Shown one piece after another: positions 29,385 to 34,657 of a stretch of DNA of 64,000 nt. The notes under the pieces were generated by a model. It saw only the letters and a program-made list of their open reading frames with translations. It did no database searches and was not told the origin of the DNA. The position numbers were made by a program, and so were the translations under genes. The number at the start of each line of letters is the position of its first letter. Position 1 is the first letter of the stretch. The stretch comes from Naegleria gruberi (lineage: Eukaryota), in NCBI GenBank assembly GCA_000004985.1, contig GG738865.1; one strand, 5' to 3'.

Positions 29385-29455
29385 GCATTAGTAGTGTAAC
29401 GGTATCATACCAGCCTTCCAAGCTGGTGACCCGGGTTCGACTCCCGGCTAATGCA
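29385..29455 (+). tRNA. tRNA-Gly (anticodon UCC), 71 nt
   Basis: GCATTAGTAGTGTAACGGTATCATACCAGCCTTCCAAGCTGGTGACCCGGGTTCGACTCCCGGCTAATGCA. It has a 7-bp acceptor stem GCATTAG/CTAATGC, anticodon loop CTTCCAA and T-arm GGGTTCGACTCCC. It matches the eukaryotic tRNA-Gly(UCC) consensus with no intron. Confidence 0.92.
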
Positions 29456-29829: not shown

Positions 29830-31878
29830 TTATTTTAATACGACATCTCCATCAAAGTAAATGTTTGTCATGAATGTAGAGTGTTTTCTATTGATAAGAC
29901 TCTTTTCTTCTTCAAGTTGTTTCTTTGAGGCATAAAGTTCAACAAGTACATCATCAGTCTTAGAGAGTTCTGTAACATACTTGGCTTGTTGTTGCACATT
30001 ACTCTTCAATACATCAATGTTACTTCTCAATCTGGATTGGTTTTCTTGGCATTCTCTAATTTCTGTATCAATTTTATAAATACGTTTCATAATTTCTGAA
30101 GATTCACTTGCCATTCTAATAGACTCTCCTAAAGCAACGATAGTTTCTGAACTGTTGATATATTTTTGATTTGCCTCCAAGGTATCTTGACTAAGCCCAT
30201 TGATTTCAATAGTTTGAATCTGGATAGCCTTCTCAGTAACTTTGAACTTTTTCTTTTCCTTTGGACCAAGACTTCCCCTAAGTCTGTAATATCTATCTGT
30301 AATATCGACAGGCTCGTTACAGTCAAATCCTGAAACTGATTCCAAATCCCAACCATCAATAAACATGTGATCAACAAACACCTCAGGGAATGATTCGTTG
30401 GACTTGTTGTCAAATGAGTATTCAATAGTTTGCTTCTTGTATCTATAAAGAGATATTGTTCCATTCTTAACTAATACATGATGGAATTCTGTTTGACTAG
30501 TGTTGAAATCTTTCAAAACTTCGATGCCCAGTTGAACAGAAATTGGGATAAGATTTTCATCTTGATTCCACATTTGGTTAATGGTTGCTTCACCAACAGC
30601 TAAATCCCTTTCATCTCTGAAAACAATTGAGCCTTCTTCTAAAACATATCCTGTACTATTTTGGAAAACAATGGCACTAAGAGGATTTCCCTTCTTGATG
30701 TTTTCGTTAAAGAGAAGCACTGGCTTGACATCCAATTCCTTTTTCAAAAAGGTGATCATAGCCCTTTGGTTTCTTTTAACATTGATAGGACACTCTATTG
30801 GGAAGAATGACAAGTTATGAGCTGTAGCAATTCTAAAAGCCTTATTTGTTGATGAAGAATCTGACCCAGATGCTCTATCATTATTAGCAACATTAACACT
30901 ACTTCCATTTTCAATATTGTAATCAGCTAAGGTTCTTCCTTCATCCAAAACTTTACCAGAAAATACCAATTTAATGCTTGAGTAAGAAGTACCTTGATAT
31001 TGAGAAACTTTTCTTTTAACTTGATCAATCAATGTAACTGGACTAAATCTAAGACTGAAAGATCCTCCACCAACAGATCTGAAATTAATTGTGATAGATC
31101 CTTCAGATTCAACATTATCAACAATAGATGGAGAACCAGTGACAAGTGTCAAGAGGACATTTTCATAATCTTCTTCTTGATCATTCTCAATCAAAGCAAG
31201 GCATTCAATAGTACCTTTAGTGTGCTCAGTATTCAAGAATTTGAATCGGTATGATGGTTTCCAAGATTTGCTCATTAAGTTATAGTTTGCCTTGACCAAA
31301 TATGGAGAATTACCTTGAGTAAAAACTGAAAGCTTGAATAAATCCTTATTTCTTTGACTGATGTAAGATTCCAAACTGTGTTGAATGAAACCTTGAATAT
31401 TTTGATCATTAAATTTGATTCCGGAAATATTAGACATGACAAATGTTTGAAGACTTGACTTGTTTGTGTAGACAGTCAAGGAAGGAACACTAACTTTGTT
31501 AGCACTGTCCATTATTTCCTCGATACCAAGAAGAATACCAGAAATTACTTCACTACTGCCATGGAATGACAAACTGATTGATGTACCCTTTAAATTCTCA
31601 AGCAAACCAGTCAATGGAGTTGATTGAGGAATATCAATAGTGAGTTTATCAGTTTCTCCCTTTGTATTTTGGTAAGAAATGCTCTTGACATCACAAGATC
31701 CATTCTCAGAACAAGGTACAGTACCAAAAGAAATTGATTTTGTCACATCATCATATGTTGAATTCTTAAAGAAGAGAACTAATTCCGTATCTCCTTGCAC
31801 TTCCTTGCTAACACGTTCAAAGGATGCAAGTCCATTGTTATAGAGAGTAATCTTCTTAAGAGGGATTTGTTGAGACAT
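29830..31878 (-). CDS. Hypothetical protein (about 680 aa) with an internal ubiquitin-like domain and a C-terminal coiled coil
   Basis: Single ORF. ITINFRSVGGGSFSLRFSPVTLIDQVKRKVSQYQGTSYSSIKLVFSGKVLDEGRTLADYNIENGSSVNV resembles a ubiquitin fold. The heptad-rich C-terminus is ...LRSNIDVLKSNVQQQAKYVTELSK... The start is ATG 31878, or alternatively the upstream ATG at 31920. Confidence 0.55.
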   Translation of the reverse strand: MSQQIPLKKITLYNNGLASFERVSKEVQGDTELVLFFKNSTYDDVTKSISFGTVPCSENGSCDVKSISYQNTKGETDKLTIDIPQSTPLTGLLENLKGTSISLSFHGSSEVISGILLGIEEIMDSANKVSVPSLTVYTNKSSLQTFVMSNISGIKFNDQNIQGFIQHSLESYISQRNKDLFKLSVFTQGNSPYLVKANYNLMSKSWKPSYRFKFLNTEHTKGTIECLALIENDQEEDYENVLLTLVTGSPSIVDNVESEGSITINFRSVGGGSFSLRFSPVTLIDQVKRKVSQYQGTSYSSIKLVFSGKVLDEGRTLADYNIENGSSVNVANNDRASGSDSSSTNKAFRIATAHNLSFFPIECPINVKRNQRAMITFLKKELDVKPVLLFNENIKKGNPLSAIVFQNSTGYVLEEGSIVFRDERDLAVGEATINQMWNQDENLIPISVQLGIEVLKDFNTSQTEFHHVLVKNGTISLYRYKKQTIEYSFDNKSNESFPEVFVDHMFIDGWDLESVSGFDCNEPVDITDRYYRLRGSLGPKEKKKFKVTEKAIQIQTIEINGLSQDTLEANQKYINSSETIVALGESIRMASESSEIMKRIYKIDTEIRECQENQSRLRSNIDVLKSNVQQQAKYVTELSKTDDVLVELYASKKQLEEEKSLINRKHSTFMTNIYFDGDVVLK

Positions 31879-32210
31879 TTTTTTTGTTGTTATGATCAAC
31901 ATCTTCGCAAGTAAGTTCATTCTCCTTTTGTAGGCCCAAATGTTAGTGCTTGTGTATGCGATGAACTACAAATGTTGCGCTTGGTGTTGGGGTTGGAACT
32001 CATTACAAAATTGTGCCAAGACAAATGGGTCATCTTTAAAGATAGGATCATCTTTTAAATGATAATAAAATCCTCTTCGCTTACTCCTCTCGAATATTTA
32101 AGGATCGCCAAATTTCGATCTCTTTAGAGAAAATTTACGTTTTGCTTTTTTTTAAAATTGGTGTTTCCTCATCAACATTTGCATCCTCATACAATAAATC
32201 AACAATAAAA

Positions 32211-32795
32211 ATGTCAAATAGTGAAAGCGGATCAAAAATAGAGTTAGAATTTGAGGTTGTTCAAAATGGTATTTATGGTAAGAAGGATTTCAGAGATGCT
32301 CTCATTTTGCAATCGTAAGTGTTGTTATGTGGAAGTTGTTGTGTGTTGAAAATATTTATCATCATCATGGAATAGAGCAAAGGATTGTCCAAGTGTAGCA
32401 ATCAAAAAGGAAGTAGAAACACACACTAATTTTGATACACACGTGTTGGTTTATGTTTCATCAGGAAATAAACCAACTGGTGGATATAGTGTTGTAGTAA
32501 AGAAAGCACAATATGATTCCGAAAAGAAGGCAATTGTTGTGCACGCAAAGGTAAGATCAAATTGTTGCTGCTTTTCAAATATATTAATAATATTAATATT
32601 TATTCCGTCGTTTGATATCAAACTTATGAATACCTGAAAATATAGGATGCTGAACCAAAGGATTCCTGTGCAACAATGGCTTTGACTGTGCCATTTTCTG
32701 TCATTCGTGTAAAGAAACTTGAACATCCATTTGAAAAGGTAAAGCTCAGATGGATGAAAAAGAAATCATCAAGCCACGAAAGTCAGCACGAATAA
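32211..32795 (+). CDS. Small protein (about 142 aa) resembling the bacterial PrcB C-terminal (TGGY) domain; join(32211..32314,32376..32550,32646..32795)
   Basis: Three short exons joined by GTAAGT...ATAG (62 nt) and GTAAGA...TATAG (95 nt) introns with consistent phases. The product contains ...VLVYVSSGNKPTGGYSVVVKKAQYDSEKKAIVVHAKDAEPKDSCATMALTVPFSVIRVKK. The domain assignment is from memory and tentative. Confidence 0.45.
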
Positions 32796-32923
32796 AGCAA
32801 AATAAATTTGTATTTTAATTTTACTTGTGAGATTGTTTTACACCCAATGTAATATCGTCAAAAGTTTGTTCATCTTGTACGTTAAAATGTTGTTATTATT
32901 GTGTTTATGATGAAAAATCCAAT

Positions 32924-33265
32924 TTAATCTTCAGCAACTTCTCCGAGGAAGACTCTTCTCAAGACCATGTTGGAGTGTGGGAGCAAAGCGTACCAAGCCC
33001 AGAAACCTAATGAAACACCCCAGAAAGCACCAGACTTAGCTCTAGGAGTCCAGACAGCTGTAGCGTTCTTCAAAAATCCAAAATAGTGCTTTGGGTACAA
33101 TGACTTTCCTTGCAAAGCATAGACTGGAAGACGGGAACCAGAAACAGATGAAACAGATGATGATTTAGCAACTTCTCCAGCAAAGACAGAGACTGGAGTG
33201 TGGTGAGGGACATCATGAACAATAACGTCCTTTGGCAAGGAGGTGGAGCCAATATTAATTTTCAT
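32924..33265 (-). CDS. Small protein (113 aa) with one hydrophobic Trp-rich helix; possibly a mitochondrial membrane or respiratory-complex accessory subunit
   Basis: ORF with locally higher GC than its surroundings. SGAFWGVSLGFWAWYALL is a hydrophobic segment. No confident family assignment. Confidence 0.4.
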   Translation of the reverse strand: MKINIGSTSLPKDVIVHDVPHHTPVSVFAGEVAKSSSVSSVSGSRLPVYALQGKSLYPKHYFGFLKNATAVWTPRAKSGAFWGVSLGFWAWYALLPHSNMVLRRVFLGEVAED

Positions 33266-33406
33266 TTTTTTTTGTTGTTTACAAAATTTACTCCTTTTGG
33301 TCTACTGGAGGAGAATTATTCATTTGAAAGATAGAACAATTGTGCATTCATTTCAGATTGTTTGAAATTTTCAACACTTTTAAACAGTACATCCAATAAT
33401 TATTTA

Positions 33407-34657
33407 TTAAAATAAATTATCATTGTGCATACTTTTAATGATTGGTGGAATGAGCGATTGTGACGACTTGTCGTAATCTATACTGAGCAGTGGATGTTGA
33501 TTCTTAATGTTGCAGTCTGCTAACCAATCTGGTACAGCATTATTGGTTTTGATAAGATGCATTTTGAATAGTTTAGAGCTAGAAAGATTTTTGAGTTTTT
33601 CCCTAATCACCTTTTCAGAATGGTCATGTTTCTCCCTCTTTATCTTATTCTTGTTATCCATATCTATGCTCCACTGAGATGGATGTAAGAACCATCTCTG
33701 TCCAAAATTTTGGGCTTTCTTTCTTTTTTGAACCAAGAATTCCTGTTCATGATTTGTCCTCGTAATAGACGTTATTTTCGTTTCCTCTTCTTCATCTGAT
33801 GAGTCTCTACCATCATCCAATCTTCTCTTATAATCCAGATAATCACTGTCTTCAACATACAGCTCTTCATCCTCAACTAAATCAGCAGGAAAATCAATGG
33901 TTTCTTTCATCTCTTGTTCCAAAGGGTGTAGCGAACAATAGGATGGAACTAAATCATCTCCACCTTCATCTGAAGATCCTCTTGATCCATTTTCATCCTC
34001 ATTATCAATTGGAGAAGGCCTTTTATTTCCTGAACCCATTGCAGACAGGTTTCCTCCAGAGCCTTGCCTCCTCATTAATCTTGGTAAAGAAATTTTCCTC
34101 TCAAATGATTGTTCTTGACCCTTTTCAATTCCTATATTATTGTACATTTTAATATCTCGCTCTCTAAGTATTTCCTCAACTTCATTCTGTTTGTGTCCAA
34201 ATTTTTCTCTATGTTTTGCTAGAACATTTGACATTGTTTCAGATATTGCAAATCTATCTTTCACAATAGGTGAAACAGGATGATAAGTCTCATCCTCTTC
34301 TCTTTTTTCTCTAATGTTATGTTCAATTTCTTGAAATAAAACCTGTTGTTTCAAAATTCTTTCATTCTTTAATTGCAAAATACCTTTCTTTTCTCTTGCA
34401 GAAATCGAACCAGATTGATCCAAGGAGGTGTCCATATAACTTTCTTCTTGATCTATTTGTTCTTCATCCATATTATAAAACCTCCAATTCTTTGAAGCTA
34501 ATTTTCTCTGAGGTACTTTTTCCGATTTATGTTTCTTCTCTATGAGTGCTGTTCGTTGCTTTGGTATTTCAAGCGATGACTTTGCCTGATTATGCCTTAC
34601 ATGCCCCGATGTTGGAATATCTTCAATTGGTGATTTTCCAAGGTAAAAGAGAGACAT
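33407..34657 (-). CDS. Hypothetical highly charged (K/E/D/R-rich) protein, 416 aa
   Basis: Single long ORF with an acidic DEEEE cluster and basic patches. No recognisable domain. Confidence 0.5.
   Translation of the reverse strand: MSLFYLGKSPIEDIPTSGHVRHNQAKSSLEIPKQRTALIEKKHKSEKVPQRKLASKNWRFYNMDEEQIDQEESYMDTSLDQSGSISAREKKGILQLKNERILKQQVLFQEIEHNIREKREEDETYHPVSPIVKDRFAISETMSNVLAKHREKFGHKQNEVEEILRERDIKMYNNIGIEKGQEQSFERKISLPRLMRRQGSGGNLSAMGSGNKRPSPIDNEDENGSRGSSDEGGDDLVPSYCSLHPLEQEMKETIDFPADLVEDEELYVEDSDYLDYKRRLDDGRDSSDEEEETKITSITRTNHEQEFLVQKRKKAQNFGQRWFLHPSQWSIDMDNKNKIKREKHDHSEKVIREKLKNLSSSKLFKMHLIKTNNAVPDWLADCNIKNQHPLLSIDYDKSSQSLIPPIIKSMHNDNLF

What the first reader, a model, noticed from the sequence alone, without database searches (positions are those of the whole stretch)
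32211..32795. Small three-exon gene whose product resembles a bacterial PrcB-type (TGGY) domain
There is a 3.2-kb spacer between flanking genes, and the track shows no long ORF at this locus. However three short exons splice cleanly (62-nt and 95-nt GT-AG introns) into a 142-aa protein. It has a ...NKPTGGYSVVVKKA...KKAIVVHAK... core like the C-terminal domain of bacterial PrcB protease-complex subunits. ORF finders miss it because the exons are short.
Basis: inference. Interest (0 to 1): 0.5.

Follow-up and report, generated by a model that had tools for sequence, protein, structure and literature searches.

The report
Annotated Naegleria PrcB-domain gene, three exons

Summary
It matches Pfam PrcB_C at E=1e-13 (51.7 bits, cut-off 24), and the match runs across the exon 2/3 junction. 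The window is Naegleria gruberi. The protein is 100% identical to RefSeq XP_002677725.1 (NAEGRDRAFT_79585, "predicted protein"), which already carries PF14343, so the finding is already known.

Orthologues exist in N. lovaniensis, N. fowleri and Willaertia magna. They share intron 1 in position and phase. Willaertia codes straight through the intron-2 site. The flanking genes are conserved, and dN/dS is about 0.1. This is a real, constrained eukaryotic gene.

Unlike bacterial PrcB-family proteins it has no signal peptide or lipobox, and it ends in a W-x-K-K-K tail. Eight such eukaryote-type sequences form one clade (190/200 bootstraps). The AlphaFold model is confident (pLDDT 85) but matches no solved structure.

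The most likely role is a cytosolic, non-catalytic binding domain. This is inferred, not shown.

Two reader errors: intron 1 is 61 nt, not 62, and the gap without long ORFs is about 1.0 kb, not 3.2 kb.

Interest is low to moderate.

The parts
32211..32314 (+). Exon 1 (104 nt, codons 1-34 plus two bases of Ser35). The ATG lies in an A-rich context (AATAAAAATGTC).
   Evidence: Splice enumeration. tblastn of the protein recovers residues 1-35 here. 100% match to XP_002677725.1.
32315..32375 (+). Intron 1, 61 nt, GTAAGT...TAG, phase 2, 31% G+C.
   Evidence: The position and phase (inside the Ser codon of LQS|AKD) are the same in N. lovaniensis (L001 4129-4336) and Willaertia magna (L002 4123-4169).
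32376..32550 (+). Exon 2 (175 nt, residues 35-93). It holds the GNKPTGGY hairpin; the TGGY codons are at 32476-32487.
   Evidence: Exon 2 is also exactly 175 nt in N. lovaniensis. G65, G70 and G71 are 90% or more conserved across the 38-sequence family alignment.
32551..32645 (+). Intron 2, 95 nt, GTAAGA...TAG, phase 0, 23% G+C.
   Evidence: N. lovaniensis has an intron at the same site (L001 4512-4582). Willaertia has none and codes HAKDAEPK without a break, which confirms the junction.
32646..32795 (+). Exon 3 (residues 94-142 plus the TAA stop). It holds the TMALTxPF motif, the last beta-strand and the basic tail RWMKKK.
32449..32714 (+). Span of the Pfam PrcB_C match (residues 60-116). It is coded by 32449-32550 and 32646-32714 and is interrupted by intron 2.
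   Evidence: E=1e-13, 51.7 bits. Coordinates converted from the exon map.
32791..32806 (+). Two AATAAA polyadenylation-like hexamers. The first overlaps the stop codon; the second is at 32801-32806.
   Evidence: sequence motif only; function not tested.
29830..31920 (-). Upstream divergent neighbour. It is a 696-aa ORF with a ubiquitin-like domain and DUF4139. The true start is probably the Met at about 31878 (MSQQIPLKK).
   Evidence: The gene is conserved next to the N. lovaniensis orthologue, where the alignment begins at residue 13.
32924..33265 (-). Downstream convergent neighbour. It is a 113-aa ORF with a hydrophobic C-terminal segment and no Pfam match.
   Evidence: It is 58% identical in N. 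lovaniensis and 51% in Willaertia, in the same position and orientation.

Best explanation
This is the annotated Naegleria gruberi gene NAEGRDRAFT_79585. It is a real three-exon gene under purifying selection, and it encodes one stand-alone PrcB-family domain of about 120 residues. The domain is otherwise a bacterial cell-envelope module. It is typically a lipoprotein or signal-peptide protein, is often repeated, and is often joined to SLH or LysM anchors. In Treponema denticola, PrcB binds the subtilisin-like protease PrtP and is needed for PrtP to accumulate. The Naegleria protein has lost the export signal and gained a short Trp-plus-polylysine C-terminal tail. It belongs to a single clade of eukaryote-type sequences.

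Shown: the gene model, the domain identity, the lack of a leader, the selection, and the single clade.

Inferred: the protein works in the cytosol as a non-catalytic beta-rich binding or stabilising subunit for a partner protein. A protease is the only partner class with a precedent. The basic tail may help it bind an acidic surface such as a membrane or a nucleic acid. The clade arose from one old acquisition of a bacterial gene, which later gained introns.
For: Gene model and identity: (100% identical to XP_002677725.1 / EFC44981.1 / UniProt D2VDY6).

Domain: PrcB_C at E=1e-13, above the gathering score. The denti_PrcB profile aligns over residues 7-116. In the exhaustive profile search, bacterial single-domain proteins align over nearly the full length, for example query 6-130 to residues 24-150 of P0046.

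Real eukaryotic gene: intron 1 is conserved in position and phase in three species, and intron 2 is shared or cleanly absent. The flanking genes are conserved. dN/dS is about 0.09-0.11 with synonymous sites near saturation. Composition matches the flanks.

No leader: the most hydrophobic 12-residue stretch in the first 45 residues scores 0.5-0.8 (Kyte-Doolittle) in the four Naegleria/Willaertia proteins. Most bacterial members score 1.8-3.5, many with a lipobox Cys.

No catalytic signature: the family-wide conserved positions are F54, G65, G70, G71, T107 and P109.

Clade: the 8 eukaryote-type sequences are monophyletic in 190 of 200 NJ bootstraps. One of them lies next to a histone H2B gene and has its own 31-nt intron.

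Protease precedent: PrcB is required for PrtP (PMC8167434).
Against: No experiment or expression data bear on function, and I could not obtain RNA-seq. The protease link is not general. Only 5 of 106 prokaryotic loci had an adjacent S8 gene, all from Gammaproteobacteria. The commonest neighbours were GT4 glycosyltransferases (14 of 84, mostly Flavobacterium). No subtilase motif occurs in the window. The score against the dentilisin PrcB equivalog model is far below its cut-off (40 against 125 bits). The direction and age of any gene transfer are not resolved. The sister group in the tree is a single unnamed metagenomic protein, and the prokaryotic sample was biased by the GEKPTGGY search pattern. 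The predicted fold matches nothing solved, so structure gives no functional hint.
Confidence: 0.7

Rival explanations
1. The protein is a free-standing relative of the N-terminal globular domain of CATIP, a radial-spoke-3 protein of motile cilia. On this reading it is an old eukaryotic ciliary component used when Naegleria turns into a flagellate, not a recent bacterial acquisition.
For: Sub-threshold matches to Pfam CATIP_N (PF21772) recur at the same place (profile positions 12-65). They appear in 6 of the 11 eukaryote-type proteins scanned, with E from 1.4e-4 to 0.11. In the 38-sequence family scan only two members reached E<=0.01, one of them the window's own protein. Naegleria builds flagella. 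CATIP is placed in mouse radial spoke 3 (bioRxiv 10.1101/2025.05.19.654877).
Against: Every hit is below the gathering score (at most 21.8 against 27 bits). Each covers only about 50 of 229 profile positions, centred on the Gly-rich hairpin. The protein has no C-terminal R2D2/docking domain. Profiles of the family found no PDB chain at E<=10 apart from noise. No expression data link the gene to differentiation.
Confidence: 0.1
2. The protein is an exported or surface protease-complex subunit that works like Treponema PrcB, as a membrane-anchored partner of a secreted subtilisin.
For: It belongs to the same domain family. PrcB-S8 linkage is seen in spirochaetes and in Gammaproteobacteria.
Against: The N-terminus is hydrophilic, with no signal peptide, no lipobox and no transmembrane segment. 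The equivalog cut-off is not met. There is no protease gene nearby.
Confidence: 0.05
3. The gene is a decaying relic of a gene transfer, or a chance ORF assembly, with no function.
For: The protein is small, has no studied function, and its exons are short.
Against: dN/dS is about 0.1 across species whose synonymous sites are near saturation. About 71-77% protein identity is kept across two genera. Intron positions and the reading frame are maintained.
Confidence: 0.02
4. The region is bacterial contamination or a misassembly in the Naegleria genome.
For: The domain is overwhelmingly prokaryotic. The 120 prokaryotic loci found with the GEKPTGGY pattern come from many phyla, and 504 representative proteins match the profile.
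Against: The gene has spliceosomal introns. Its coding G+C (37%) fits the flanks (30-36%). It sits in an 820-kb contig, between the same neighbours in independently assembled genomes of other species.
Confidence: 0.01

Closest known systems
Treponema denticola PrcB (dentilisin protease-complex subunit; NCBIfam NF033596; Pfam PF14343 PrcB_C)
   Same: It has the same domain family. PrcB_C matches above threshold, and the alignment to the denti_PrcB profile extends over residues 7-116. Both are small and both lack conserved catalytic-type residues.
   Different: PrcB is an acylated outer-membrane lipoprotein of about 23 kDa. It is encoded in the prcB-prcA-prtP operon and is required for PrtP (PMC8167434). 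The Naegleria protein has no leader, contains introns, has no protease neighbour, scores 40 bits against a 125-bit cut-off, and carries a W-K-K-K tail.
Bacterial 'protease complex subunit PrcB family protein' (single-domain lipoproteins, and multi-repeat cell-envelope proteins such as Serpentinicella alkaliphila WP_132847831.1)
   Same: It has the full-length domain architecture of the single-domain forms, at 21-31% identity, with the shared motifs F...G-x-K-P-T-G-G-Y and T-x-A-L-T-x-P.
   Different: The bacterial forms are exported. They have a signal peptide or lipobox, and the multi-repeat forms carry SLH or LysM anchors. The eukaryote-type forms make a separate clade.
Orthologues in Heterolobosea: N. 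lovaniensis C9374_009089, N. fowleri FDP41_010604, Willaertia magna ABK040_007504
   Same: They share 71-77% identity, the same length class, intron 1 and the same downstream neighbour. UniProt already names two of them 'PrcB C-terminal domain-containing protein'.
   Different: The differences are small. The N-terminal Ser/Thr-rich stretch varies in length, Willaertia lacks intron 2, and the C-terminal tail varies.
CATIP N-terminal domain (Pfam PF21772), a ciliary radial-spoke-3 protein
   Same: There is a recurrent weak similarity over the hairpin region.
   Different: The similarity is below threshold and partial, and the protein has no docking domain. This is a lead, not a membership.

Membership tests
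Pfam PF14343 PrcB_C domain family | Profile match at or above the gathering score (24 bits) over most of the 56-position model | tested here: met
   51.7 bits, E=1e-13, profile positions 3-56 of 56, residues 60-116. All 38 members of alignment A2 also match.
Pfam PF14343 PrcB_C domain family | Conserved Gly-rich motif (K-P-T-G-G-Y) and downstream T-x-A-L-T-x-P | tested here: met
   Residues 67-72 are KPTGGY and residues 103-109 are TMALTVP. G65, G70, G71, T107 and P109 are 90% or more conserved across the family alignment.
Dentilisin PrcB proper (NCBIfam NF033596, equivalog) | Whole-protein score at or above the curated cut-off (125 bits) | tested here: not met
   40.4 bits. The protein is homologous but is not an equivalog.
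Dentilisin PrcB proper (NCBIfam NF033596, equivalog) | N-terminal lipoprotein signal (acylated Cys) that anchors it in the outer membrane | tested here: not met
   The N-terminus MSNSESGSKIELEFE is hydrophilic, with a maximum 12-residue hydropathy of 0.54, against about 2-3.5 in bacterial members.
Dentilisin PrcB proper (NCBIfam NF033596, equivalog) | Genetic linkage to a subtilisin-family protease (prcB-prcA-prtP) | tested here: not met
   The neighbours are a ubiquitin/DUF4139 protein and a 113-aa membrane-like protein. The window holds no S8 active-site motifs. Operon logic is not expected in a eukaryote.
Dentilisin PrcB proper (NCBIfam NF033596, equivalog) | Physical binding to the partner protease and its stabilisation | not testable with these tools
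   This needs pull-down or co-expression experiments.
CATIP (Pfam PF21772 CATIP_N plus a C-terminal R2D2/docking domain) | CATIP_N match at or above the gathering score (27 bits) | tested here: not met
   21.8 bits at best, covering 50 of 229 positions.
CATIP (Pfam PF21772 CATIP_N plus a C-terminal R2D2/docking domain) | C-terminal dimerisation/docking (R2D2-like) domain | tested here: not met
   The protein ends at residue 142, just after the PrcB-type domain, and no such Pfam match was found.

The most novel reading that the evidence does not exclude
The heterolobosean leaderless PrcB-domain proteins could be stand-alone homologues of the N-terminal globular domain of the ciliary radial-spoke-3 protein CATIP. 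That would link a bacterial cell-surface domain to the eukaryotic flagellar apparatus and give the poorly resolved CATIP head domain an evolutionary origin.
Probability: 0.1. Interest if true: 0.5.

Novelty: already known. Interest (0 to 1): 0.22.

Why it matters
For genome annotation it matters little. The gene model is already in RefSeq (XP_002677725.1), the PF14343 assignment is already precomputed, and two orthologues are named for the domain in UniProt. The biology is a small open question. A domain otherwise confined to prokaryotic cell envelopes has become a conserved, leaderless and presumably cytosolic protein in Naegleria (including the pathogen N. fowleri), in Willaertia, and in at least one further unidentified eukaryote. 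The domain has no solved structure. Its only studied function is stabilising a subtilisin in an oral spirochaete. The eukaryotic copy is therefore a clean single-domain candidate for structure determination and for finding what this fold binds. None of this is surprising enough to rank high.

Tried and rejected
- **Sequence search of PDB.** I searched with the protein and with two family profiles and found only noise.
- **Literature.** There were no hits for the locus tag or accessions. Nothing relevant turned up for PF14343 or PrcB_C. The differentiation paper I tried holds no supplementary tables, and the Naegleria genome paper is not in the library. I therefore obtained no expression or HGT-list evidence.
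- **Related loci.** I used a degenerate DNA pattern for GEKPTGGY instead, which biases the prokaryotic sample.
- **Named homologues.** The word-indexed homologue search with the 38-sequence alignment returned only 11 proteins. Named taxonomic sampling of distant relatives stayed thin, and most close eukaryote-type hits are unnamed metagenome or SRA contigs.
- **Paralogues.** There is no paralogue in the window.
- **RNA families.** Rfam found no family in or around the introns.
- **First tree script.** It timed out, so I rewrote it.
- **Readings rejected.** Contamination, pseudogene and secreted-protein readings are rejected for the reasons given under the rival explanations.

Full report
**1. 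The observation**

The region 30500-34500 was read directly. All GT-AG two-intron models from the ATG at 32211 to the stop ending at 32795 were enumerated.

The introns are 32315-32375 (61 nt, GTAAGT...TAG) and 32551-32645 (95 nt, GTAAGA...TAG). The quoted core NKPTGGYSVVVKKA...KKAIVVHAK is present. The unspliced frame is full of stops, and the introns are more AT-rich than the exons (31% and 23% G+C against 37%).

Two details in the finding are wrong:
- Intron 1 is 61 nt, not 62.
- There is no 3.2-kb spacer. A 696-aa ORF ends at 31920 and a 113-aa ORF lies at 32924-33265 on the minus strand. Both are conserved in relatives. The interval without long ORFs is therefore about 1.0 kb. The coding sequence has only 290 nt of spacer upstream and 128 nt downstream.

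**2.

- Pfam PrcB_C (PF14343) matches at E=1e-13, 51.7 bits against a gathering score of 24. It covers profile positions 3-56 of 56 and residues 60-116. This stretch crosses the exon 2/3 junction at residues 93/94.
- NCBIfam denti_PrcB (NF033596) aligns residues 7-116 to profile positions 57-167 of 176, crossing the exon 1/2 junction. It scores 40.4 bits, far below its 125-bit equivalog cut-off.

The protein therefore carries the whole PrcB-type domain. It is not an orthologue of the dentilisin subunit.

**3. What the locus is**

A search of the protein collection returned a 142-aa protein that is 100% identical over its full length. It is "predicted protein [Naegleria gruberi]", with PF14343 already precomputed.

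Its accessions are EFC44981.1, XP_002677725.1 and UniProt D2VDY6, and its locus tag is NAEGRDRAFT_79585. The window is therefore N. gruberi, and this exact gene model is already public.

Orthologues:

| Species | Identity |
|---|---|
| N. lovaniensis | 77% |
| N. fowleri | 76% |
| Willaertia magna | 71% |

UniProt names the N. lovaniensis and N. fowleri proteins "PrcB C-terminal domain-containing protein".

**4. Comparative support for the model**

I fetched the orthologous loci and fitted each protein to its DNA.
- N. lovaniensis has introns at the same two sites, and exon 2 is again exactly 175 nt.
- Willaertia has only intron 1, at the same codon and phase (inside the Ser of LQS|AKD).
- Willaertia codes HAKDAEPK without a break across the intron-2 site. 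This is independent confirmation of that splice junction.

Gene order is conserved. The ubiquitin-domain gene lies upstream in N. lovaniensis, and the small convergent gene lies downstream in both N. lovaniensis and Willaertia.

Nei-Gojobori counts give pS 0.73-0.82 (near saturation) against pN 0.17-0.24. Where it can be computed, dN/dS is about 0.09-0.11.

Contamination, chance ORFs and pseudogene status are therefore excluded. The window holds no paralogue, Rfam finds no RNA family in the interval, and there is no competing conserved model.

**5. The wider family**

An exhaustive profile search of 1.84 billion representative proteins found 504 relatives at E<=1e-3 and 26 at E<=1e-10.

The nearest relatives are unnamed environmental sequences with the same leaderless form and basic tail (P0006, P0007, P0008, P0019, P0021; later P0160). 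Their sources are metagenome or SRA contigs.
- One of them, in assembly GCA_016850925.1, sits beside a histone H2B gene. Its coding sequence is interrupted by a 31-nt GT-AG intron just after GGY. It is from another eukaryote.
- P0007 reads through into sequence at the HAK| site, as expected for an unspliced intron 2.

All other hits look prokaryotic:
- Single-domain proteins of about 140-180 aa with a signal peptide or lipobox.
- Multi-repeat proteins, for example Serpentinicella alkaliphila "protease complex subunit PrcB family protein".
- Large relatives that carry SLH or LysM cell-envelope modules.

N-terminal hydropathy separates the two groups cleanly, at 0.5-0.8 for the Naegleria/Willaertia proteins against about 2-3.5 for most bacterial members.

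In a neighbour-joining tree of 82 domains, the eight eukaryote-type sequences form one clade in 190 of 200 bootstraps. The sister group is unresolved.

**6. Clues to function**

The positions conserved across the family are F54, G65, G70, G71, T107 and P109. These are structural residues. No conserved Ser/His/Asp/Cys set is present, so a non-catalytic role is likely.

The only studied member is Treponema denticola PrcB. It is an acylated surface lipoprotein encoded in prcB-prcA-prtP. It interacts with the subtilisin-like PrtP and is required for PrtP to be detected (PMC8167434).

To see whether the protease link is general, I collected 120 prokaryotic loci with a GEKPTGGY-coding pattern. Of these, 106 held a PrcB-like ORF. 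I then scanned 84 closely adjacent same-strand neighbours against Pfam:

| Neighbour family | Count | Lineage |
|---|---|---|
| GT4 glycosyltransferase | 14 of 84 | mostly Flavobacterium |
| Transketolase | 5 of 84 | not determined |
| Peptidase_S8 | 4 of the 84 scanned; 5 loci by active-site motifs | four Marinobacter, one Cellvibrionaceae |

In the S8 loci the protease gene overlaps the start of the PrcB-like gene by 4 bp. The PrcB-subtilase pairing therefore recurs outside spirochaetes, but it is the exception in this sample.

The window contains no subtilase motif.

**7. Best reading**

The gene encodes a cytosolic, stand-alone PrcB-fold protein that most likely acts as a non-enzymatic binding or stabilising module.
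- The leaderless N-terminus and the conserved W-x-K-K-K tail are the eukaryote-specific changes.
- A protease partner is the only precedent, but there is no direct support for one in Naegleria.
- A single old acquisition from bacteria, followed by intron gain, fits the distribution and the single clade. It is not proven.

**8. A lead that was not resolved**

Six of the eleven eukaryote-type proteins scanned give sub-threshold hits to Pfam CATIP_N. The hits always fall on profile positions 12-65, with E from 1.4e-4 to 0.11 and at most 21.8 bits against a cut-off of 27. In the 38-sequence family scan only two members reached E<=0.01, one of them the window's own protein.

CATIP is a ciliary protein placed in mouse radial spoke 3. 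Its N-terminal globular domain is poorly resolved (bioRxiv 10.1101/2025.05.19.654877). The original C2orf62 paper reports little homology to characterised proteins (PMC3903541).

The match is short and centred on the Gly-rich hairpin. I could not run a profile-profile or fold comparison with CATIP. I rate this reading at about 10%.

**9. Verdict**

The gene and its domain label are already in public databases, so nothing new is discovered here. What remains open is the function of a conserved, leaderless eukaryotic copy of a bacterial envelope domain that has no solved structure. Interest is low to moderate.

Noticed in passing
window 32924-33265 (-): A 113-aa ORF with a hydrophobic C-terminal segment (GAFWGVSLGFWAWYALLP) and no Pfam match. 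It is conserved at 58% identity in N. lovaniensis and 51% in Willaertia. In all three species it lies convergent to the PrcB-domain gene and immediately downstream of it. Function unknown.
   Followed up: partly
window 29830-31920 (-): A 696-aa ORF that combines a ubiquitin-like domain (residues 278-344) with DUF4139. It is conserved upstream of the PrcB-domain gene in N. lovaniensis (713 aa). The true start is probably the internal Met (MSQQIPLKK, about 31878), because the orthologue alignment begins at residue 13.
   Followed up: partly
window 29385-29455 (+): A tRNA-Gly (anticodon TCC). It is the only tRNA that ARAGORN found in the 64-kb window.
   Followed up: no
L024, L050, L062, L112 (Marinobacter) and L113 (Cellvibrionaceae): A large Peptidase_S8 gene (770-979 aa) lies immediately upstream of a PrcB-family gene, and its stop overlaps the PrcB start by 4 bp. 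This protease-PrcB pairing lies outside the oral spirochaetes, where the review read describes PrcB as having no homologues in other species.
   Followed up: partly
L004 74-521 (+) (GCA_016850925.1, JAESGV010002436.1) and L003 154-561 (+): A leaderless PrcB-domain gene in an unidentified eukaryote, next to a histone H2B gene. The L004 copy has a 31-nt GT-AG intron right after the GGY codons, a different position from the Naegleria introns. The L003 copy is intronless and may be a transcript.
   Followed up: partly
P0113 (1132 aa, unnamed metagenomic protein), residues 846-898: A protein with three PrcB_C repeats gives a sub-threshold match to Emfourin, a family of metalloprotease inhibitors (23.9 against 27 bits). 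This is a weak hint of another protease-related context for the domain.
   Followed up: no
Flavobacterium loci among L005-L122 (e.g. L005, L018, L023, L063, L066): The PrcB-like lipoprotein gene is regularly preceded, on the same strand, by a gene of about 375 aa. GT4 glycosyltransferase was the commonest neighbour family in the scan (14 of 84). The link is unexplained and is lineage-specific in this sample.
   Followed up: no
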